A program made the position numbers and the translations under genes. DNA of 64,000 nt from Dehalococcoidia bacterium (lineage in GTDB: Bacteria; Chloroflexota; Dehalococcoidia; UBA2979): positions 920,605 through 984,604 of the forward strand of contig OZ241365.1 of the NCBI GenBank assembly GCA_965200555.1, given 5' to 3'. Every line of letters begins with the position of its first letter. The first letter of the stretch is position 1. The notes under the pieces were generated by a model. That model ran no database searches and was not told the origin of the DNA. It saw only the letters and a list, made by a program, of their open reading frames with translations. Below are positions 7,951-52,990 of the stretch, in pieces.

Positions 7951-7997
7951 TATACTCGCGGCGAAGCGGTGCGCTCAACCGCGCGCGCGGTTGAGCG
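7951..7997 (+). promoter_or_regulatory. Putative dnaN promoter -10 (TATACT 7951-7956, within GCCGGTATACTCGCGG) followed by a perfect 26-nt palindrome (7972-7997, CGCTCAACCGCGC|GCGCGGTTGAGCG) in the 5' leader
   Basis: Read directly from the sequence. A TTGCCC -35-like hexamer sits 18 nt upstream. The palindrome lies between the -10 and the GTG start at 8021. Confidence 0.4.
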
Positions 7998-20158: not shown

Positions 20159-20395
20159 CTAGACGGGGAGCGCCTCGGCGGGCTCGCCGCGCGCGGCGTA
20201 GACCTCGCGGATCGCCGCCTCCAGCTCCTCCATCGAGCGGTAGGAGCGGTCGGGGATGGAGGCGAGCACGGCGAACACCTCGCGGTCGATGCCGCCCTGC
20301 ATCCGCGAGCGGCGCACGACCTCGTCGCGCGATGCGGGGAACAGCAGCCCCGCGAAAGCGTTGCGGTAATCGGCCCTGCCGGCGTGTACGACCAT
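20159..20395 (-). CDS. DUF2795 family small protein
   Basis: 78 aa. The ...ASRDEVVRRSRMQGGIDREVFAVLASIPDRSYRSMEELEAAI... pattern matches DUF2795 (recalled, not verified). Confidence 0.55.
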   Translation of the reverse strand: MVVHAGRADYRNAFAGLLFPASRDEVVRRSRMQGGIDREVFAVLASIPDRSYRSMEELEAAIREVYAARGEPAEALPV

Positions 20396-20481
20396 CGAGC
20401 CGCCTCCTCTCCCGCCGCCATCCTAGCGGCGTCCGCGCGCGGCGGCGAGCGCGCGCCGGCGGCGGCCGCTATCGTGGGGCC

Positions 20482-20631
20482 GTGCCCTACCGCGAAACGC
20501 CCCGCGAGGCGCGCTGCCGCTACTGCTTCGCGCCGACGGCGCGCGCCTGCATGCGCTGCGCCCATCCCGTCTGCGGCGACTGCGAGGCCCGCCACGACGC
20601 CTCGTTCGAGCACCGCGACTACACCGGCTGA
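20482..20631 (+). CDS. Possible small Cys-rich (zinc-ribbon-like) protein
   Basis: There is a GTG start and 49 aa with CRYC...CMRCAHPVCGDC. No homology is recognised, and it could be spurious. Confidence 0.25.
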   Translation: MPYRETPREARCRYCFAPTARACMRCAHPVCGDCEARHDASFEHRDYTG

Positions 20632-20640
20632 GCGCGCCCC

Positions 20641-20718
20641 TCGCGCCCCTCGCCCCGCGGGCCGGGGGTATACTCGCGGGCGCGCCGGCGGCCCGCCCGC
20701 CGGGGATCGGTTCGCGCC
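20641..20718 (+). promoter_or_regulatory. Conserved upstream element U1 (CCTCGCCCCGCGGGCCGGGGGTATACTCGCGGGCGCGCCGGCGGCCCGCCCGCCGGGGATCGGTTCGCGCC-ATG), putative promoter/leader with -10 TATACT at 20669-20674
   Basis: The element repeats nearly identically before each paralog (U2 21796..21871 with TATACT 21832-21837; U3 22925..23002 with TATACT 22953-22958). Confidence 0.45.
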
Positions 20719-21669
20719 ATGCGGTGGCGCTTGGCGTCCTTCGGTCTCGCGTTCCTCGCGATGGCGACCGTTGCCGTCGCGGTCTCCGTGCGCGGCGGCG
20801 GCCCGGCGCAGCCCCTCGTGGCGCCGACCGCGACCGTCGCGCCCGATGTCGCGCCCACCTCCCCGCCGATCCCGCGGGTGGCGCTGGGCCGCTATCTCGA
20901 GGGCGGAGGCACCTACGCCTTCCCCGGCGGCGCCTGGATCTTCGACGTGCCCGAGGGCATGCAGCTGCAGCACCACTGGCGGGCGAGCGGTGGCAGCGCA
21001 ACCTCTTACGGGTTCCTGAATCAGGCGACCGGCGCCTCTTTCAGTTTCAACGTGAAACCGGACAGCGCAGAGTTCCAGCTACAGGCACAGGCCACAATTC
21101 CCGCAGCTCGCGAGCTCGCTTCCGTTTGGCTGGACGCCGTAGAGGCGTCCGTCCGCCGCCCGCCGGGCTTCGTGGAGCCTCCGCCCACGCCCGTCCCGGG
21201 GCCGGGCGCGAACCCCGACGGCGTCCCCTACCTCCGCGGCTACGGCCTCCACGAAGAGGTGTTCGCGGGCGGGCGCACCTACGCCACTCCCGACGACCAG
21301 TGGCTCGTCGACGTGCCGGCCGGGCTCAGCGTCATGTTCCACGAGAATACCCAGGCCATGCCGACCTGCCTGGCACCCTCGACGGCGGCCTCGTGCGGTG
21401 AAGCCGTCGACACCTACGGTTTCGACGCCGTCGGGATACGGTCGAGCGTCTACATCAACAAAACGACGGGCAAGTTTGCTGGACGGAGCGGGGTCGTCAA
21501 CCCGCAGATGGATGCGTTGGCTGCTTCGTTCAAATCGGTTCGCGCCATGCGGTGGCGATGGGCGTCCTTCGGTCTCGCGTTCCTCGCGATGGCGGCCGTT
21601 GCCGTCGCGATCACCGTGCGCGCCGGCGACCCGGCGCAGCCCCTCGCGACGCCGACCGTTCGGTGGTGA
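20719..21669 (+). CDS. Secreted paralog P1 (signal anchor MRWRLASFGLAFLAMATVAVAV + two copies of a GGRTY...DVPxGM module), C-terminally fused in frame to a truncated next unit
   Basis: Read from the track translation. After ...MDALAASFKSV the ORF reads through RAMRWRWASFGLAFLAMAAVAVAITVRAGDPAQPLATPTVRW*, which is the N-terminus of another unit and indicates an unequal-crossover junction. Confidence 0.55.
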   Translation: MRWRLASFGLAFLAMATVAVAVSVRGGGPAQPLVAPTATVAPDVAPTSPPIPRVALGRYLEGGGTYAFPGGAWIFDVPEGMQLQHHWRASGGSATSYGFLNQATGASFSFNVKPDSAEFQLQAQATIPAARELASVWLDAVEASVRRPPGFVEPPPTPVPGPGANPDGVPYLRGYGLHEEVFAGGRTYATPDDQWLVDVPAGLSVMFHENTQAMPTCLAPSTAASCGEAVDTYGFDAVGIRSSVYINKTTGKFAGRSGVVNPQMDALAASFKSVRAMRWRWASFGLAFLAMAAVAVAITVRAGDPAQPLATPTVRW

Positions 21670-21793
21670 AGCCGTCGACACCTACCGTTTCGACGCCGTC
21701 GGGATACGGTCGAGCGTCTACATCAGCAAAACGACGGGCGAGTTTGCTGGACGGAGCGGGGCTGCGCTGGCTGCTTCGTTCAGGAAGCCGTAG
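21661..21793 (+). pseudogene. Orphan C-terminal fragment of a paralog unit (GEAVDTYRFDAVGIRSSVYISKTTGEFAGRSGAALAASFRKP*)
   Basis: Out of frame with P1; it matches the canonical unit C-terminus (...VNSQMDALAASFRKP*). Confidence 0.45.
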
Positions 21794-21795
21794 AA

Positions 21796-21871
21796 ACCGG
21801 CCTCGCCCCGCGGGCCGGGGGTATACTCGCGGGCGCGCCGGCGGCCCGCCCGCCGGGGATCGGTTCGCGCC
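21796..21871 (+). promoter_or_regulatory. Conserved upstream element U2 (TATACT 21832-21837)
   Basis: Near-identical to U1 and U3. Confidence 0.45.
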
Positions 21872-22927
21872 ATGCGGTGGCGCTTGGCGTCCTTCGGTCT
21901 CGCGTTCCTCGCGGTGGCGGCCGTCGCGGTCGCGATCGCCGTGCGCGCCGGCGGCCCGGCGCAGCCCCTCGCGGCGTCGACCGCGACCGTCGCGCCCGAT
22001 GTCGCGCCCACCGCCGCGCCGACGCTCACCCCCGAGACAGCTCCGGCGCCCACCCCCACGCCGATCCCGCAGGTGGAGCCCGGCGACTTCCTCGAGGGCG
22101 GACGCACCTACGCCCTCCCCGGCGGCGCCTGGATCTTCGACGTGCCCGAGGGCATGCGCCTGTGGCACAACGGAGACGAACCGGGGAAGAACCCCGGGGA
22201 CCCGCCGAACGGCTTCGGCTTCATGGACCGCGTGACCGGCTCCCTGATCACCATCTACCTGCGGCCGGACGGGTCCCTCGACTTCTACGGCTTCAACTAC
22301 GGGTCCACTCCCGAGGCCCGCGAGCTCGCGGACGCCTGGCTGCCCGCGATCGAGGCGTCCCTCCGCCGCCCGCCGGGCTTCGTGGAGCCTCCGCCCACGC
22401 CCGCGCCCGTCTTCCCGGGTCCGGGCGCGAACCCCGACGGCGTCCCCTACCTGCGCGACTACGGCCTCCACGACGAGGTGTTCGCGGGCGGGCGCACCTA
22501 CGCCACTCCCGACGACAAGTGGCTCGTCGACGTGCCGGCCGGGCTCAGCGTCATGTTCCACGAGAATACCCAGGCCATGTCGGTCTGCCCGCCGGGCTCG
22601 AGGGCCTCGTGCGGTGAAGCCGTCGACACCTACCTTTTCGACGCCGTCGGGATATGGTCGAGCGTCTACATCAGCAAAACGACGGGCAAGGTCGCTGGAC
22701 GGATCGCTGGACGGAGCGGGGATGTCAACTCGCAGATGGATGCGTTGGCCGCTTCGTTCAGATCGGTTCGCGCCATGCGGTGGCGCCGGGCGTCCTTCGG
22801 TCTCGCGTTCCTCGCGATGGGGGCCGTTGCCGTCGCGATCACCGTGCGCGCCAGCGAGTTTGCTGGACGAAGCGGGGTCGTCAACTCGCAGATGGATGCG
22901 CTGGCTGCTTCGTTCAGGAAGCCGTAG
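21872..22927 (+). CDS. Secreted paralog P2 (most complete copy; signal anchor, PT linker, two GGRTY...DVPxGM modules, C-terminus ...ASFRKP)
   Basis: 351 aa. It contains the in-frame micro-unit insert RAMRWRRASFGLAFLAMGAVAVAITVRA before the canonical C-terminus. Confidence 0.55.
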   Translation: MRWRLASFGLAFLAVAAVAVAIAVRAGGPAQPLAASTATVAPDVAPTAAPTLTPETAPAPTPTPIPQVEPGDFLEGGRTYALPGGAWIFDVPEGMRLWHNGDEPGKNPGDPPNGFGFMDRVTGSLITIYLRPDGSLDFYGFNYGSTPEARELADAWLPAIEASLRRPPGFVEPPPTPAPVFPGPGANPDGVPYLRDYGLHDEVFAGGRTYATPDDKWLVDVPAGLSVMFHENTQAMSVCPPGSRASCGEAVDTYLFDAVGIWSSVYISKTTGKVAGRIAGRSGDVNSQMDALAASFRSVRAMRWRRASFGLAFLAMGAVAVAITVRASEFAGRSGVVNSQMDALAASFRKP

Positions 22928-23002
22928 AACCGGCCTGCCCGCGGGCCGGGGGTATACTCGCGGGCGCGTCGGCGGCCTGCCCGCCGGGAATCGGTTCGCG
23001 CC
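22925..23002 (+). promoter_or_regulatory. Conserved upstream element U3 (TATACT 22953-22958)
   Basis: Near-identical to U1 and U2. Confidence 0.45.
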
Positions 23003-23737
23003 ATGCGGTGGCGCTTGGCGTCCTTCGGTCTCGCGTCCCTCGCGGTGGCGGCCGTCGCGGTCGCGGTCGCCGTGCGCGCCGGCGGCCCGGCGCAGCCCCT
23101 CGCGGCGTCGACCGCGACCGTCGCGCCCGAGGCCGCGCCCACCGTCGCGCCGACGCTCACCCCCGAGACAGATCCGGCGCCCACCCCCACGCCGATCCCG
23201 CAGGTGGAGCCCGACGCCGACCTCGAGGGCGGACGCACCTACGCCCTCGGGGGCGCCTGGATCTTCGACGTGCCCGAGGGCATGCGCCTGTGGCACACCG
23301 GGGGACCGCCGGGCGGCTTCGGCTTCATGGACCGCGTGACCGGTTCCGTGATCACCATCTACCTGCAGCCGGACGGGTCCCTCGACTTCTACGGCTTCAA
23401 CCACGGGTCCACCCCCGAGGAGCGTGAGCTCGCGGACGCCTGGCTGCCCGCGATCGAGGCGTCCGTCCGCCGCCCGCCGGGCTATGTGTACCCTCCGCCC
23501 ACGCCCGCGCCCGTCTTCCCGGGGCCGGGCGCGAACCCCGACGGCGTCCCCTACCTCCGCGACTACGGCTTCCACGAAGAGGTGTTCGAGGGCGGGCGCA
23601 CCTACGCCACTCCCGACGACCAGTGGCTCGTCGACGTGCCGACGGGCATCAGCATCCGCTTGGGCCTTGTGTTGGTTATGGCACATACCCTGCATACCCC
23701 GCACCCGCCCGCCACCGAAGCGTATAAAATTTTCTAA
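23003..23737 (+). pseudogene. Paralog P3, C-terminally disrupted
   Basis: Homology to P1/P2 holds up to ...WLVDVPTGISI and then diverges into a lower-GC segment (about 23650-23830), ending KIF*. The canonical C-terminal motif (YLDMLAASFRR) reappears in another frame (ORF 23424..23981), and further unit fragments extend to about 23960. Confidence 0.5.
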
Positions 23738-24116
23738 TGACGCGGACACGGCGGAATGGATAGCCGTCAGCAAGGACAGAGGCAGAGTCGTCGGTATCAG
23801 TGGCCAGCCCGGTCGTCCCGACAACACGTATCTGGATATGCTGGCTGCCTCGTTCAGAAGGAACTCCACGCCTGCAGACACCTCGACGCTCGTCTCCGCG
23901 CTCTGCTGCGCGCTCCTGCTCGGCCTCAACGCAGCACGCCGATCCCGCAGGCGGCGCTCGGCGCGTTCTCGCGTCCCGTAATCCGATCGCCGGCGGGCCG
24001 GACGGCGCGCCGCGCCCGCGCGCCGGCGCGGGCCGCGGGCACGCGCAGGAAGCGCCGCCGCAGCGCGGCGGGCCGCGCCGCTTCACGCGGCGAGGGGCGG
24101 CGCGTACCCTTGAGGC

Positions 24117-31953: not shown

Positions 31954-33435
<1,482 letters not shown>

Positions 33436-48770: not shown

Positions 48771-50453
48771 GTGACGCGGAAGCTGGCGCTGGCGGGACTG
48801 GTCGTCGCCGTGCTCGTCGCGGGCGCGGCGTCCGCGCTGGCGCAGGACGCAGGGTCCGAGGTGCGGATCGCCGCGCGGCGGCTCGCCGACGGGCGCGTCG
48901 AGTTCGCGCTGCAGCCCCGCTCCGGCGGCGGCTGGGGCGCGCGCGTGCTGCCGTCCAGCCGCTACTTCCCCGCGAACGCCGCCGTCGGCCGCTGGCTCAG
49001 CTCCTCGCCGGTGGACGCCGGCGGTGTCGAGGTGCGGATCAGCGCACAACGGCTCGCCGACGGGCGCGTCGAGTTCGCGCTGCAGCCGCGCGCGGGCGGC
49101 GGCTGGGGCGAGCGCGTCCTGCCGTCCAGCCGCTACTTCCCCGCGAACGCCGCCGCCGGCCGCTGGCTCAGCTCCTCGCCGGTGGCGCTCGGCGGCGCGG
49201 CGGCGATGACGGGCGACGATCCCGCCTCGTGCGCCCTCGCCGACCATATCGACCGCGTGAGGGCCGCGACGTTCCAGGTGCGGACCGCCTCCGGCGCCGG
49301 TACGGCCTTCTACATCGGCAACGACGAGTGGCTGACGAACCACCACGTCGTCGAGGACGCGACGCGGGCCGAGCTGGTCCACGGCGGCACTCGCCTCTCC
49401 GCCGCCGTCGCGGGCAGCCTGCCGGGGTACGACCTCGCGCTGCTGAGGGCGCGGCCTCCGTCCTCGGTGCGCCCGCTCCGCCTCGCCGCCGCGAGGCCGG
49501 CGGTGCTGGCGAGCGTGGCGGTGGTGGGGTTCCCGCCCCCCGTCTCGGGCACCCCGTCGGCCACCCGCGGGGTGGTGTCGAAGCACGCCCCGTTCTCCCA
49601 ATTCCCGGACCAGCTCGACGGCAGCGGCGTCGTGCTGCAGACCGACGCCGAGATCAACCCCGGCAACAGCGGCGGCCCCATCGTCGACGGCTGCGGTACG
49701 GTGGCCGCCGTCGCCACGTTCAAGCGGTCCTCGTCGCAGGACGGACGCGACGTCGACGGCATCGGCTTCGGCGTCGCCGCCGAGACGGTCGCCGCGCGGC
49801 TCGCCCAGCTGCGCTCTACCGAGCATGTGGCGGGAGGCGCGCCGCAAGCCGCCGCCGAGGCCGCCTTCAATACCTGTATGGCGAACTGGGGCGACACCTA
49901 TGGCAACCAGATTGGGGCCACTCTCGCCGCCATCCGCACTGTTGAGGACATCGAGGACGAGGTTACCGGGTGGGGCGTACCCACCTCTTACATTACCGCC
50001 ATCTACGCCGACCCCAGCATCATTCCCCCCGGTGGTCTCTTCGTAACCCCGGGGTTTCCCCTCGGCACTGATAGCCCAGGCGTTTTCAGAATCTTCGGTG
50101 GCAACTTTGACAACCTGCGGGCGCTGATCCAAGGGGCCACTGGGGTTGCGATTATTCGCGACGACTCGATCGGTTTCGCTACAGCGGCGACTCGTCGCGA
50201 GACGCTCTCTGTGGACAGGTTCTTCTTTCGGCTGGATATTATTCGCGAGACTTGGCATTACTCCATCAGCCCGTGGTTCGCTCCTGCCGATCAGGGGCCG
50301 TTGAGTCTGGACTTCACAGCTGCGAAGAACTCTCTGGAGGCTAACAGGCTTCGGCTGGTGGGGCTGCAGGCGGCTGACCGAGACAACTGGGAACGCTACT
50401 GCGCGTCGGCGGCTGGACAAACTGTTGGGCCGGACGAGCATACCCCCCGATAG
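48771..50453 (+). CDS. Secreted trypsin-like (S1/chymotrypsin family) serine protease with two N-terminal ~52-aa tandem repeats and a C-terminal extension encoded by lower-GC DNA
   Basis: Signal peptide MTRKLALAGLVVAVLVAGAASALA. The repeats are EVRIAARRLADGRVEFALQPRSGGGWGARVLPSSRYFPANAAVGRWLSSSPV, present twice. The catalytic His is in TAFYIGNDEWLTNHHVV and the Ser in NPGNSGGPIVD. From about 49860 the coding DNA drops to roughly 58% GC. Confidence 0.7.
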   Translation: MTRKLALAGLVVAVLVAGAASALAQDAGSEVRIAARRLADGRVEFALQPRSGGGWGARVLPSSRYFPANAAVGRWLSSSPVDAGGVEVRISAQRLADGRVEFALQPRAGGGWGERVLPSSRYFPANAAAGRWLSSSPVALGGAAAMTGDDPASCALADHIDRVRAATFQVRTASGAGTAFYIGNDEWLTNHHVVEDATRAELVHGGTRLSAAVAGSLPGYDLALLRARPPSSVRPLRLAAARPAVLASVAVVGFPPPVSGTPSATRGVVSKHAPFSQFPDQLDGSGVVLQTDAEINPGNSGGPIVDGCGTVAAVATFKRSSSQDGRDVDGIGFGVAAETVAARLAQLRSTEHVAGGAPQAAAEAAFNTCMANWGDTYGNQIGATLAAIRTVEDIEDEVTGWGVPTSYITAIYADPSIIPPGGLFVTPGFPLGTDSPGVFRIFGGNFDNLRALIQGATGVAIIRDDSIGFATAATRRETLSVDRFFFRLDIIRETWHYSISPWFAPADQGPLSLDFTAAKNSLEANRLRLVGLQAADRDNWERYCASAAGQTVGPDEHTPR

Positions 50454-50682
50454 TGAAGGCTCGTGCCCCTCGAACTTCAGCGCCGTCGTGACCGAACCCG
50501 AGCGTTAGCCGCGCCGATCCCTCGCGCGAGCCTCGATGCGTCGCGCGGCGTCAGCCGGCGGGGGCGAGCGGGGCCGCCGCCGGGTAGAACACAGCGGATG
50601 CTCGCCCGACAGCGGGGGCATCAAAGGCACGCCAGCTCCCAACGGCCGCTGGTTCCACTTCATGCACATCCTGCTGTGGCAG

Positions 50683-51786
50683 CTAGGTCAATCCCAAAAG
50701 GAACTCGCGAGGCTGGCGCACACGCTTAATCCTGAAGTTGGCGACACGTACCCCATCATCAGCAAGGTACGTTGTCTTGCGAGACCCTTCTCGCACTGCA
50801 GTGATGTAATCGTTGAACCGCCTGATCATCACATCCCTTTTCTCCCAATCAAGAGAATCCCACCAAGTGGGAGCAATACAGAGACTTTCGGACGCTTCGA
50901 TCAAGAAACGAATCAAGGCATCAGGCATGTCTTCCCGTCCTATGCTCAGTAGCGACTTGGCGAATCGCACCGGGGCTGTTGATCCACGCAACCAGGACAG
51001 AATAACCGCACCACTTCCGGGAGTTGCTATACTGGAAACAAGCAGTTGCTCCATGGGGATATCGACTTGCATCTGATTCTGTAGCAAATTTCCTTTAAAA
51101 TCGCAGTCTGGCATCCATGCGAAGCTCGCGAGTATCGGCGGATGTCGGTCCGTTTCCAACACGAGAGACCGGATTTCATCGAAACGGCTCATCTGCAGGT
51201 AACGATCCAAATCCGCTTTGACCCTTTGCAAATCCGCACGCCCGAGACGTATGCCTATTCTCTGGTGGTTCAAAAACTCTTGAGTCTCCTTTTGTCCCGC
51301 TGGGGGCATCCCGCGGTCAGCGTTGAGTTTAGCCCACTGGATGTGTTGTTCTGCTCCGATCTTGAAGTACAGCTCACGACTGGCCGCCCTGAAAGCGAAG
51401 AGGAAGTTCTGCTGATCCGAAAAATCGATGGTATTCCCTTTCTCGATGGGATCGAACAACGCATCATGCGCTTGGCAGAATCCTCTGAAGATAGATGCTT
51501 GGCTGACACCGAACAACCTCGGAAGCACTTGGTGGTCACTCACTGCGCGCCTGAAGTAATAGACATGTCCACCCTCAGCGATAGCGGACAACATGGCGAG
51601 CTGCACACCGTGGGCGCGTATGGCGGGGCCGCAGCCTGTCGGCGCATCCGGGTGCAAGCATTCCTCGCGCCCGACGAAGTAAGTTTGTTCGGCTCGGTGC
51701 ATCTCAGAAAGACTCAAGGGGGGTTGATCTTCGCGCCCGCGATGGCACTGAGCGAACTCGACGCCAGAGTCACACCAGCACAGCAT
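50683..51786 (-). CDS. SEC-C metal-binding motif protein of unknown function on a ~50% GC island
   Basis: The start is chosen at MLCWCDSGVEFAQCH (C-x-C-x-S-G-x5-C-H, the SecA C-terminal SEC-C motif). The rest of the 367 aa has no recognised domain. The track ORF extends upstream to 51963 in high-GC DNA that overlaps the livM 3' end. Confidence 0.5.
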   Translation of the reverse strand: MLCWCDSGVEFAQCHRGREDQPPLSLSEMHRAEQTYFVGREECLHPDAPTGCGPAIRAHGVQLAMLSAIAEGGHVYYFRRAVSDHQVLPRLFGVSQASIFRGFCQAHDALFDPIEKGNTIDFSDQQNFLFAFRAASRELYFKIGAEQHIQWAKLNADRGMPPAGQKETQEFLNHQRIGIRLGRADLQRVKADLDRYLQMSRFDEIRSLVLETDRHPPILASFAWMPDCDFKGNLLQNQMQVDIPMEQLLVSSIATPGSGAVILSWLRGSTAPVRFAKSLLSIGREDMPDALIRFLIEASESLCIAPTWWDSLDWEKRDVMIRRFNDYITAVREGSRKTTYLADDGVRVANFRIKRVRQPREFLLGLT

Positions 51787-51898
51787 ATCCCGGCGGCCCC
51801 TACCTGCGCTCTGGATGGTAGCACTCCACGTTGCCGTCTCGCAACTGCAGGTCGATACACCCCGACTGATATCGCCGCCCGCGCACGGCACGCGGCGG

Positions 51899-52990
51899 TC
51901 AGCCGGCGAGGGCGCGGAGGCGCGCGCGCAGCGCGGCGAGGGGCGAGCCGGGGCCGCCTCCACCGCCGCCTCCCTCGCCGCGCGGGGCGAAGCGGCTGAC
52001 GATCGCGCGCTCGGGGACGAGGCCCTGCGGGCGCGCCAGCACGAACAGCACGATCAGCAGCCCGATCGCCACCCGCCGCAGCACGAACACGCGCGTCCCG
52101 AGGAAGTCCGGCAGGCTCTCCTGGAACAGCGGCAGCCCGAACCACACGAACGCCACCACCAGCGCCCCCACGACGGCGCCGCGGTTGTTGCCGCTGCCGC
52201 CCACGATCACCATCGTCCAGACGAGGAACGTCATCAGGTTCTCGAACGAGTCGGGCGCGATCGTGCCGTAGCGGTGCGCCCAGATCGCGCCCGCCAGCCC
52301 CATCAGCGCCCCGCCCAGCACGAAGCTCTGCATCCGGTAGCTGGCCGTCCACTTGCCGACCGAGCGCGCGGTGTCCTCGTTCTCGCGGATCGCGCGCAGC
52401 ACGCGGCCCCACGGCGAGGCCGTCGCCCCCCGCACCGCGACGAACACGGCGGCCAGCGTCAGCAGCGTGATCGCCAGCAGCACGAGGTCGTAGTCGATGC
52501 CGCGCTCGCCGGCGGCGGCCTCGAACGGCCTCGGGATGCCGTTGAGGCCGCGCGCGCGGTTGACGAGGCCCTCCTGCGTGTTGGCGATGCTCCGCAGGAT
52601 CGAGGTGATGCCGATCGTCGCGATCGCGAGGAAGTCGTCGCGCAGCCGCAGCGTCGGCAGCCCCACCAGCAGCGCGAGCGCGGCGCCGGCGGCCATGCCG
52701 CCCAGCCAGCCGATCGGGATCGGCAGCTCGTACCCGCCGACGTAGCTCTCGAACTGGCCGGGCGGGTCGAGCGTCAGCAGCGCGCTGGCGTAGGCGCCGA
52801 CGGCGAGGTAGGCGATCACGCCGAAGTTGACCGTGCCGGTGTAGCCCCACTGCACGTTCAGCGCGAGCGTGGCGATGCCGAGGATCGCCGCCGTCGTGAG
52901 GAACCCGACGGTCCAGTTCGCGCCGCCGGTCACGGAGATCTGCAGCGCCCCGTCGAGCGGCAGTCCCGCCAGCCCCGCCAGCGCCTCCAC
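51899..52990 (-). CDS. livM: Branched-chain amino acid ABC transporter permease (LivM-like)
   Basis: It is polytopic and has the LivM pattern ...NFGVIAYLAVGAY...; the C-terminus is Gly-rich. Confidence 0.8.
   Translation of the reverse strand: MEALAGLAGLPLDGALQISVTGGANWTVGFLTTAAILGIATLALNVQWGYTGTVNFGVIAYLAVGAYASALLTLDPPGQFESYVGGYELPIPIGWLGGMAAGAALALLVGLPTLRLRDDFLAIATIGITSILRSIANTQEGLVNRARGLNGIPRPFEAAAGERGIDYDLVLLAITLLTLAAVFVAVRGATASPWGRVLRAIRENEDTARSVGKWTASYRMQSFVLGGALMGLAGAIWAHRYGTIAPDSFENLMTFLVWTMVIVGGSGNNRGAVVGALVVAFVWFGLPLFQESLPDFLGTRVFVLRRVAIGLLIVLFVLARPQGLVPERAIVSRFAPRGEGGGGGGGPGSPLAALRARLRALAG

What the first reader, a model, noticed from the sequence alone, without database searches (positions are those of the whole stretch)
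20637..23960. Tandem array of paralogous secreted-protein genes, each preceded by a conserved promoter-like element and scarred by unequal crossover
Three full or partial gene units follow one another (P1 20719-21669, P2 21872-22927, P3 23003-23737). Each is preceded by a near-identical about 78-bp element ending ...GGGGGTATACTCGCGGGCGCGCCGGCGGCCCGCCCGCCGGGGATCGGTTCGCGCC-ATG. Between and inside the units there are in-frame fusions of a unit C-terminus with the next unit's N-terminus (RA-MRWR(W/R)ASFGLAFLAM...), an orphan C-terminal fragment (21661-21793), a micro-unit (22766-22927), and a third copy interrupted by a lower-GC segment with more unit fragments out to about 23960.

The picture is of a locus undergoing frequent intra-array recombination, expansion and contraction, reminiscent of contingency or antigenic-variation loci. 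The encoded proteins (signal anchor + Pro/Thr linker + two GGRTY...DVPxGM modules) match no family I know.
Basis: seen in the sequence. Interest (0 to 1): 0.8.

Follow-up and report, generated by a model that had tools for sequence, protein, structure and literature searches.

The report
Recombining surface-protein gene array, sponge symbiont
Three head-to-tail copies of a gene for an uncharacterised, probably cell-surface protein sit in the genome of an uncultured Chloroflexota bacterium from Agelas sponges, and comparison with the same locus in other sponges shows that the copies are reshuffled, gained and lost by recombination; this is a familiar way for bacteria to vary their surface, here with a new protein domain.

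Summary
Window 20648-23981 carries three direct repeats of a promoter, leader and gene (77-91% identical over about 1 kb). Pieces of the N-terminus are re-inserted into C-termini, and an orphan tail fragment is present.

The "promoter-like element" carries TATACT, which is this genome's ordinary -10 box. Copy 3 is not interrupted. Its lower-GC stretch is the native core of a divergent second domain, and the ORF is cut by one extra A in an A-run.

Seven syntenic loci from Agelas sponge metagenomes carry 2-3 units. Some are clear chimeras: L006 unit 1 is the window's unit 1 at its 5' end and unit 2 at its 3' end. The mini-units sit at different array positions. Expansion and contraction by unequal crossover is therefore shown between strains.

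No switching device was found (no simple repeats, invertible promoter or silent cassettes), so "contingency locus" remains unproven.

Verdict: a new member of a known kind, of moderate interest.

The parts
20648..20718 (+). Unit 1 promoter and leader; -10-like TATACT at 20669-20674, 44 nt before the ATG
   Evidence: Identical to the unit 2 element. TATACT is conserved in all 21 units of 8 loci.
20719..21669 (+). P1, the unit 1 (type 1) gene. Signal anchor 20734-20790, module A 20881-21177, module B 21244-21532, then the fused N' piece.
21533..21658 (+). N'a: a copy of the last 14 nt of the leader plus the first 112 nt of a unit CDS, fused in frame to the tail of P1. Junction 1 lies at 21532|21533.
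   Evidence: (93% identical to 20706-20830). The same junction occurs in L087 and L088.
21659..21793 (+). Orphan C-terminal tail C' (FGGEAVDTYRF...ASFRKP*), out of frame with P1. It is the remnant of an internally deleted unit and carries an 18-nt internal deletion.
   Evidence: 92-94% identical to 21380-21493 and 22613-22706.
21801..21871 (+). Unit 2 promoter and leader; TATACT at 21822-21827
21872..22927 (+). P2, the unit 2 gene, a mosaic. Its 5' end equals unit 1, its linker equals unit 3, and its tail is of the unit 1 type. It contains a 12-nt tandem duplication at 22692-22715.
22761..22856 (+). N'b: a second, shorter copy of the leader-14 plus signal-anchor piece, in frame. Junction 1 lies at 22760|22761.
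   Evidence: Both N' copies share the AITVRA variant, so they have a common origin. Also found in L003, L006 and L089.
22857..22927 (+). C'': a duplicated last third of the tail (EFAGRSGVVNSQMDALAASFRKP*), in frame
   Evidence: 22854-22916 is 94% identical to 21470-21532.
22933..23002 (+). Unit 3 promoter and leader; TATACT at 22953-22958
23003..23981 (+). Unit 3 (type 3) gene, split by a +1 frameshift in the A-run at 23722-23725. It is annotated or read as P3 23003-23737, but the true stop is at 23979-23981.
   Evidence: alignment to L006; the intact 332-aa and 308-aa homologues P0009 and P0014.
23886..23978 (+). C-terminal hydrophobic helix (23886-23936) plus Arg-rich tail (23937-23978) of the type 3 protein. 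23935-23968 is a relic of a TPIPQV..G linker/module-A boundary read in another frame.
   Evidence: (D10). Distant members P0030 and P0032 also end in a transmembrane helix plus a basic tail.

Best explanation
This is a three-unit tandem array of paralogous genes in an uncultured Dehalococcoidia (Chloroflexota) symbiont of Agelas sponges. Each unit has its own ordinary -10 promoter, a short leader and a nearly identical signal anchor. These are followed by a Pro/Thr-rich stalk and two homologous copies of a novel ~100-residue domain, a seven-stranded sheet packed by a C-terminal helix.

The conserved blocks are the promoter-leader-signal region, the GGxTY..W..DVPxGM motif, the RRPPG..GPGANPDGVPYLR inter-domain segment and the ...ASFRKP tail. 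They act as substrates for homologous recombination between units. Unequal crossover and gene conversion change copy number (2 or 3 units) and make mosaic genes. Occasional deletions with only 1-5 nt of shared sequence at the break make truncated mini-units. One ~86-nt deletion removed a stop codon and a promoter, fusing a mini-unit in frame to the preceding gene. These scars are then moved around the array by further crossovers.

Shown:
- the repeats and the junctions;
- copy-number and junction polymorphism between strains, with the chimeric breakpoints;
- faster protein evolution in the array than in its flanks.

Inferred:
- the proteins are displayed on the cell surface of this Chloroflexota bacterium (presumed to lack an outer membrane);
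- the turnover diversifies the surface seen by the sponge host, phages or neighbours;
- the fused N' pieces are neutral scars rather than functional anchors.
For: Array and junctions.

Same genomic slot. The array lies between glyoxalase/DUF2795 and murI/pyrF in 7 independent assemblies from Agelas tubulata and A. conifera (Grand Cayman, St Croix, Curacao), plus one other assembly.

Structure of each locus:
- L002: 2 units, no insert.
- L001: 3 units, no insert.
- L006: 2 units.
- L003, L087, L088: 3 units.
- Insert a follows unit 1 in the window but unit 2 in L087 and L088.
- Insert b follows unit 2 in the window and L003, but unit 1 in L006 and L089.

Chimeras:
- L006 unit 1 is 93-100% (mostly 97-100%) identical to window unit 1 up to module B, then 99-100% identical to window unit 2.
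- Window unit 2 switches its nearest relative three times.
- The tail of window unit 1 is 95-100% identical to the tail of L088 unit 2.

Promoter: TATACT is kept in 21 of 21 units and in the distant loci L091 and L092 (TATACT, TATGCT). The same hexamer class lies upstream of about a dozen other genes in the window.

Evolutionary rate: dN is 0.05-0.10 and dN/dS 0.6-1.0 in the array between the window and other strains. In the flanking genes dN is 0-0.02 and dN/dS 0-0.5 (0.7 for the 78-codon DUF2795 gene).

Domain:
- Modules A and B are homologous (hhalign probability 99.2%, E 2e-19).
- The AF2 domain model has pLDDT 94.4.

Surface context:
- an N-terminal hydrophobic segment in all close relatives;
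- lipoboxes in P0015, P0016 and P0024;
- a C-terminal transmembrane helix plus basic tail in type 3, P0030 and P0032;
- fusion with LRR in L092, and co-occurrence with fn3, LRR and InlB B-repeat domains in distant hits.
Against: - Most comparison loci are short-read metagenome scaffolds of mixed strains. Some contain N gaps and frameshifts. The order of units or mini-units in them could be partly mis-assembled.
- dN/dS near 1 and the frameshifts are also what decaying genes would show.
- No expression, localisation or within-population data exist.
- The N-terminal segment may be a cleaved signal peptide or an uncleaved anchor; this is unresolved.
Confidence: 0.6

Rival explanations
1. Programmed contingency or antigenic-variation locus. 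Recombination among units occurs at high frequency within a single symbiont population and switches the displayed protein. The N' fusions and mini-units serve as working cassettes or anchors.
For: - The layout has a conserved 5' region with variable mature parts, and the structure differs in every sponge sampled.
- Amino-acid change is elevated.
- The fused N' piece adds a second hydrophobic helix at the C-terminus, while type 3 and the distant members P0030 and P0032 carry C-terminal anchors of their own.
- The G-run before the -10 box is G5 in most units but G4 in L003 unit 2 and L087 unit 3.
Against: - No simple-sequence tract was found: TRF shows only short GC-rich repeats and one 12-nt duplication.
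- No inverted repeats flank a promoter.
- Among the immediately flanking genes examined there is no recombinase or invertase.
- Every full unit has its own promoter, so there is no single expression site with silent donors.
- The basic residues lie on the N-terminal side of the fused helix (RAMRWRR). Going by the positive-inside rule (general knowledge, not a tool result), that is the wrong side for a C-terminal out-to-in anchor.
- Junction 2a is out of frame.
- All variation seen is between hosts.
Confidence: 0.15
2. Decaying, functionless gene cluster. The units are relics drifting neutrally, and the scars, frameshifts and rearrangements simply accumulate.
For: - dN/dS is 0.6-1.0.
- There is a frameshift in window unit 3 and in several units of L002, L003 and L088.
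- Truncated mini-units and an out-of-frame orphan tail are present.
- The array is less GC-rich (0.70-0.71) than the genome (0.75).
Against: - Units 1 and 2 are intact ORFs with GC3 of 0.86-0.90.
- The -10 box is strictly kept in 21 of 21 units while neighbouring bases vary.
- The domain motifs and both domains are kept down to 40% identity and in other lineages and architectures.
- Intact type 3 genes exist (P0009, P0014, P0055).
- The window frameshift is a single base in a homopolymer and could be a sequencing error.
Confidence: 0.15
3. Assembly artefact. The odd fusions and fragments are mis-joins of a collapsed repeat.
For: Tandem repeats of 77-100% identity are hard to assemble. L001 turns into unrelated low-GC sequence after its third unit, and L003 and L089 contain N gaps.
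Against: - Junction 1 (TTCA[A/G]ATCGGTTCGCGCC) joins sequences that share only 1-2 nt, so it cannot arise from a k-mer mis-join.
- It recurs in the 2.49-Mb contig that holds the window and in 5 independent scaffolds from different sponges.
- Junctions 2a and 2b also recur.
Confidence: 0.04
4. Array of secreted immunity proteins against extracellular or contact-delivered toxins, by analogy with tandem T6SS lipase-immunity genes.
Against: - No toxin or effector gene is adjacent; the neighbours are glyoxalase, DUF2795, murI and pyrF.
- There are no PADLOC hits.
- Relatives are fused to LRR and fn3 adhesion-type domains.
Confidence: 0.05

Closest known systems
Tandem paralogous lipoprotein clusters such as the Staphylococcus aureus lpl (tandem lipoprotein, DUF576) cluster (from my own knowledge, not tested here)
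   Same: Head-to-tail paralogues of a small secreted or anchored protein. Copy number differs between strains through unequal recombination. A role in host interaction is presumed.
   Different: The window proteins have no lipobox and no DUF576 or other Pfam match. The domain is unrelated, the organism is a Chloroflexota sponge symbiont, and fused mini-units are present.
Variable surface-protein multigene families with a conserved promoter, leader and signal region and variable mature parts, such as Mycoplasma vlp/vsa and the Borrelia upstream-homology-box families (from my own knowledge)
   Same: The promoter-leader-signal block is ~90-100% conserved among units, while the mature part drops to 44-58% nucleotide identity in its cores. 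Each gene carries its own promoter.
   Different: Those systems switch by promoter homopolymer slippage, site-specific inversion or cassette conversion. None of these devices was found here, and high-frequency switching has not been shown.
Mog1/PsbP-like fold proteins, including the mycobacterial proline-rich secreted antigens Apa and MTC28, the T6SS immunity proteins TplEi and Tli4, and BT_1490
Eukaryote-like repeat proteins (LRR, fn3, ankyrin) of sponge symbionts (from my own knowledge)
   Same: The family is found in sponge metagenomes. A sister-lineage gene fuses the same signal and linker to an LRR domain plus modules A and B. Distant hits carry fn3, LRR and InlB B-repeat domains.
   Different: The window's three proteins contain no LRR or fn3 domain. 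The A/B module itself has no eukaryotic counterpart that I could detect.

Membership tests
Tandem gene array evolving by unequal crossover or gene conversion | Direct head-to-tail repeats of a whole gene with its promoter | tested here: met
   Three units, 77-91% identical over ~1 kb. The period is 1153 and 1131 nt.
Tandem gene array evolving by unequal crossover or gene conversion | Copy-number polymorphism at the same chromosomal slot in related strains | tested here: met
   2 units in L002 and L006; 3 in the window, L001, L003, L087 and L088. All lie between DUF2795/glyoxalase and murI.
Tandem gene array evolving by unequal crossover or gene conversion | Chimeric units whose switch points lie in shared homology | tested here: met
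   L006 unit 1 is window unit 1 (5') joined to window unit 2 (3'). The switch lies in module B, where the two units are 96-99% identical. Window unit 2 is a multi-part mosaic.
Contingency / phase- or antigenic-variation locus | A dedicated switching device: a simple-sequence tract, an invertible promoter with a recombinase, or silent cassettes feeding one expression site | tested here: not met
   No SSR. No promoter-flanking inverted repeats. Every full unit has its own -10 box. The immediately adjacent genes are housekeeping.
Contingency / phase- or antigenic-variation locus | High-frequency variation within one clonal population | not testable with these tools
   Only consensus assemblies are available; no reads.
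Mog1/PsbP-like fold superfamily | Clear structural or profile similarity to members | tested here: inconclusive
C-terminal sorting signals (LPXTG/sortase, PEP-CTERM, GlyGly-CTERM, PGF-CTERM) | A signature motif recognised by the curated models, followed by a transmembrane helix and a basic tail | tested here: not met
   The type 3 tail has the helix and the Arg-rich tail. No NCBIfam sorting-domain model matches, even at E 10.
Bacterial lipoproteins | A lipobox cysteine at the end of the signal peptide | tested here: not met
   There is no Cys in the N-terminal 45 residues of P1, P2 or type 3. Lipobox-like motifs occur only in the distant members P0015, P0016, P0020 and P0024.
Any curated protein family (Pfam, NCBIfam, PADLOC, PHROGs) | A score above the family threshold | tested here: not met
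   Searches give no meaningful hit for the whole proteins or for 48 isolated domains.

The most novel reading that the evidence does not exclude
The array is a genuine on-going variation system of a sponge symbiont. Recombination among the units happens often enough within one host to keep several surface variants in the population, driven by sponge recognition or phagocytosis, or by phages. The in-frame re-use of the gene's own signal anchor at the C-terminus is a newly evolved way of tethering both ends of the protein, paralleling the independent C-terminal anchor of the type 3 unit.
Probability: 0.15. Interest if true: 0.65.

Novelty: new member of a known kind. Interest (0 to 1): 0.42.

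Why it matters
The finding adds an uncharacterised extracellular domain family. The family has only about 40 cluster representatives among 1.84 billion. All close relatives whose sample could be traced come from Agelas sponge tissue.

It also gives a concrete, well-delimited example of strain-level structural variation in a surface-protein locus of an uncultured Chloroflexota symbiont. If the proteins mediate host or phage interaction, the locus would be a useful marker of symbiont strain identity and a candidate determinant of host specificity.

It does not reveal a new genetic mechanism. The behaviour is what homologous recombination does to any tandem array.

Tried and rejected
RNA and promoter checks
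- Rfam on 19.5-25 kb (E up to 1) and on the whole window (gathering threshold): no RNA family. No tRNAs.
- The leader RNA does not fold better than shuffled sequence (z +0.5 to +1.65), so a riboswitch or structured leader is rejected.
- A sigma-70 consensus scan found no -35/-10 pair. The -10 alone is conserved, so only a '-10-type promoter' is claimed.

Searches for relatives
- A scan of GTDB representative genomes and of JGI metagenomes with the family profile found no relative. Cross-genome comparison therefore rested on ENA assemblies.
- Exact look-up of P1 in the contig index failed.
- No NCBI accession or name was available for the source genome.

Structure and family searches
- Foldseek against the PDB was uninformative.
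- PADLOC and PHROGs gave no hits.
- NCBIfam sorting-signal models did not match the type 3 tail.

Other
- I tested whether the 5' regions group by genome, which would indicate concerted evolution. They do so only weakly (0.91 within genomes versus 0.89 between), so no claim is made.
- A paper on sponge-holobiont strain variation (PMC11410982) does not mention this lineage or locus.
Full report
**1. The observation**

Self-BLAST of 20.4-24.3 kb against the whole window gives two very strong alignments and no copy anywhere else in the 64 kb:
- 20648-21629 versus 21801-22857: 81% over 1064 nt, E 0.
- 21760-22552 versus 22894-23656: 91% over 793 nt, E 0.

The unit period is 1153 and 1131 nt.

The element in front of each ATG is 71-75 nt long. 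It is identical between units 1 and 2 and differs at a few bases in unit 3.

A piece made of the last 14 nt of the leader plus the first 82-112 nt of the CDS recurs inside the 3' ends of units 1 and 2, at 21533-21658 and 22761-22856. It is 90-93% identical to the true N-termini and gives the in-frame ...ASF(K/R)-SVRAMRWR... fusions.

The orphan tail at 21659-21793 is out of frame with P1. The duplicated tail end at 22857-22927 is in frame. Both are real.

**2. Corrections to the observation**

Copy 3 is not interrupted. Homologues from other assemblies (P0009 of 332 aa, P0014 of 308 aa, and P0055) run straight through the lower-GC stretch. In them it is the core of a divergent second domain. 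They end in ...[44 protein letters not shown].

Alignment with L006 shows that the window has TATAAAATTTTC where L006 has TATAAATTTTC. One extra A at 23722-23725 breaks the frame. The gene therefore spans 23003-23981. The change may be a real mutation or a homopolymer sequencing error.

The fragment at 23935-23968 is a relic of a TPIPQV..G linker/module-A boundary (D10). Read in another frame, it supplies the Arg-rich end of the type 3 protein.

**3. Organism and habitat**

The ATP synthase beta subunit of the window (32026-33435) is 90% identical to that of a Dehalococcoidia MAG. Nearly all of the next dozen matches are also Chloroflexota, mostly Dehalococcoidia.

The proteins of the array occur in one NCBI/ENA contig of 2.49 Mb and in ENA metagenome contigs. 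The scaffolds labelled PANK22-1 belong to PRJNA555077 (Pankey et al. 2022, Caribbean sponges). Every sample with a related locus is Agelas tissue: A. tubulata, A. conifera, A. clathrodes and A. citrina from Grand Cayman, St Croix and Curacao. This comes from supplementary file 8 of PMC13083261.

The family profile found nothing in GTDB representative genomes or in JGI metagenomes.

**4. The promoter-like element**

TATACT is kept in all 21 unit upstream regions of the eight loci, even where neighbouring bases vary. A TATACT or TATGCT sits at the same distance in the distant homologues L091, L090 and L092.

In this GC-rich window, TAT(A/G)(A/C)T-type hexamers are rare. About a dozen of them outside the array lie 6-67 nt upstream of high-GC3 ORFs, for example at 7951(+), 19583(-), 2636(-), 46190(+), 41273(-), 35539(-) and 10812(-). 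The element is therefore the genome's ordinary -10 box plus a ~37-nt leader.

No -35 consensus was found. The leader folds no better than shuffled sequence, and Rfam finds nothing. Each full unit thus has its own plausible promoter. The fused N' pieces have lost theirs.

**5. The proteins**

No Pfam, NCBIfam, PADLOC or PHROGs family matches.

The family is tiny. There are 18 hits among 5.8 billion clustered proteins. A profile search finds 39 hits with E ≤ 1e-3 among 1.84 billion representatives.

Each protein has these parts:
- an N-terminal hydrophobic segment after MRWR;
- a Pro/Thr/Ala-rich linker;
- two modules that are homologous to each other (hhalign probability 99.2%, E 2e-19).

AlphaFold2 models were made for the whole protein and for one module:
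- Whole protein: pLDDT 77, with the domains at 85-95.
- One module, with a 48-sequence alignment: pLDDT 94.4, pTM 0.85. It has seven β-strands and a C-terminal helix.

Structure searches gave no close relative:
- Foldseek gives nothing below E 0.01.
- PDB sequence profiles give nothing below E 0.03.

I therefore treat the module as a new domain family without a solved relative.

Context points to the cell surface:
- lipobox-like motifs in P0015, P0016 and P0024;
- a C-terminal helix plus basic tail in type 3, P0030 and P0032;
- up to five modules in P0024;
- fn3, LRR and InlB B-repeat domains in distant hits;
- in a sister lineage, a tandem pair in which the second gene has the same promoter, leader and signal but carries LRR + A + B (L092).

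**6. Comparison of the locus between strains**

Seven other assemblies hold the same slot, between glyoxalase/DUF2795 and murI/pyrF. Landmark mapping and translation give these structures:

| Locus | Units | N' inserts |
|---|---|---|
| L002 | 2 (type 1, type 3) | none |
| L001 | 3 | none |
| L006 | 2 | b after unit 1 |
| L003 | 3 | b after unit 2 |
| L087, L088 | 3 | a after unit 2 |
| L089 | at least 2 | b after unit 1 |
| Window | 3 | a after unit 1, b after unit 2 |

A sliding comparison shows the mosaics:
- L006 unit 1 is 93-100% (mostly 97-100%) identical to window unit 1 up to module B. It is then 99-100% identical to window unit 2.
- The switch lies where the two window units are 96-99% alike. 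This is the expected product of an unequal crossover that turns three units into two, or the reverse.
- Window unit 2 is itself a mosaic. Its promoter and signal equal unit 1, its linker equals unit 3, its module A equals L001 and L003 unit 2, and its tail equals L006 unit 1.
- The tail of window unit 1, including insert a and the orphan fragment, is 95-100% identical to the tail of L088 unit 2. That tail hangs on a different kind of unit.

It is clearly not met.

**7. Origin of the scars**

Junction 1 joins ...GCTTCGTTCA(G/A) to ATCGGTTCGCGCC-ATG. It is an ~86-nt deletion that removed the last five codons, the stop codon and the promoter of the next unit. The ends share only 1-2 nt. Such a join cannot be produced by a k-mer mis-assembly, and it recurs in six independent assemblies.

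Junction 2a joins N' nt 112 to ...TTCGGTGGTGAAGCC, the PFGGEAVDTY start of a type 1 tail as seen in L001 and L002. It is an internal deletion of both modules.

Junction 2b can be derived from 2a by a further deletion across a GGCGA repeat. Both N' copies share the AITVRA variant, and both tail remnants share the EFAG variant.

The simplest history has three steps:
1. One unit lost its modules.
2. It was fused to its upstream neighbour.
3. The resulting mini-unit, and a shortened derivative, were spread to other array positions by crossovers in the flanking tail repeats.

Nothing suggests that the fused pieces work:
- Their basic residues precede the helix. Going by the positive-inside rule (general knowledge, not a tool result), this is the wrong side for a C-terminal anchor.
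- Junction 2a is out of frame.
- Their intactness is expected from their youth.

**8. Selection**

Nei-Gojobori estimates between the window and other strains were compared with the flanking genes in the same genome pairs:

| Genes | dN | dS | dN/dS |
|---|---|---|---|
| Same-type array units | 0.05-0.10 | 0.05-0.13 | 0.6-1.0 |
| Glyoxalase, DUF2795, murI, pyrF | 0-0.02 | 0.02-0.05 | 0-0.5 (0.7 for the 78-codon DUF2795) |

The array proteins thus change five to ten times faster. This fits diversifying pressure mixed with constraint. It equally fits relaxed constraint plus exchange between paralogues. I cannot separate these possibilities with the present data.

**9. Verdict**

The locus is a recombining tandem array of surface-type protein genes. 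The "interrupted" third copy was a misreading.

The contingency-locus analogy lacks its defining features. There is no switching device, and within-population variation is untested.

Caveats:
- The comparison loci are mostly short-read scaffolds with some gaps and frameshifts.
- L001 becomes unrelated low-GC sequence after its third unit.

Individual array orders should therefore be confirmed with long reads. The recurring junction sequences, and the 2- versus 3-unit scaffolds that reach both flanks (L002, L003), do not depend on that.

Noticed in passing
window 50000-51950: A low-GC island (about 0.60 versus 0.75 for the genome). It holds a 426-aa ORF on the minus strand (50683-51963) with only a weak SEC-C motif hit. 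Next to it is a trypsin-like peptidase ORF (48771-50453) whose 3' end is also lower in GC. This may be recently acquired DNA.
   Followed up: partly
window, e.g. 7951(+), 19583(-), 2636(-), 46190(+), 41273(-), 35539(-), 10812(-), 60687(-): TAT(A/G)(A/C)T-type hexamers are rare in this 75% GC sequence. About a dozen outside the array lie 6-67 nt upstream of high-GC3 ORFs, often as G/C-rich sequence + TATACT/TATGCT + CGCGG. This looks like a usable -10 promoter signature for this lineage.
   Followed up: partly
window 20332-20631 (+): A small Cys-rich ORF (…CRYCFAPTARACMRCAHPVCGDCEARHD…, weak B-box zinc-finger hit, E 0.01) ends 17 nt before the first unit's upstream element. Its 5' part overlaps the DUF2795 gene on the other strand, so the true start is probably later. 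Its 3' end is conserved in all syntenic loci.
   Followed up: no
L092 965-3968 and L093 784-3787: A sister lineage (two PANK22-1 sponge samples) has a tandem pair with a shared ~75-nt upstream element (TATGCT) and shared signal. One gene has modules A-A-B, with a near-identical internal module duplication. The next gene has an LRR domain followed by A-B.
   Followed up: partly
L001 11457 onward: The long contig ctg385707 loses all similarity to the window inside its third unit and continues as low-GC sequence with almost no called genes. The locus GC is 0.56 overall. This is probably a chimeric join at the repeat.
   Followed up: no
window 22692-22715: A perfect 12-nt tandem duplication (TCGCTGGACGGA x2) inside P2 gives ...AGRIAGRSG... 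It is an in-frame slipped-strand duplication that is also present in L003 and L006.
   Followed up: no
window 20664-20668, 21817-21821, 22948-22952; L003 unit 2, L087 unit 3: The G-run directly before the -10 box is G5 in most units but G4 in two units of other assemblies. It is too short and too poorly sampled to call phase variation, but it is the only length-variable homopolymer near the promoters.
   Followed up: no
window 20960-21100, 21400-21800, 22500-22900, 23600-23900: The most divergent cores and the tails of the units are the lowest-GC parts of the array (0.60-0.67). The conserved blocks are 0.76-0.82. The cause is unknown; relaxed constraint or a different origin of the cores are possibilities.
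   Followed up: no
L004 10001-13536, L005 9243-12748: The most distant two-module homologue (P0018, 40% identity) is single-copy. In both contigs it sits directly upstream of an MMPL-family transporter gene, near IS21 and IS110 transposases.
   Followed up: no
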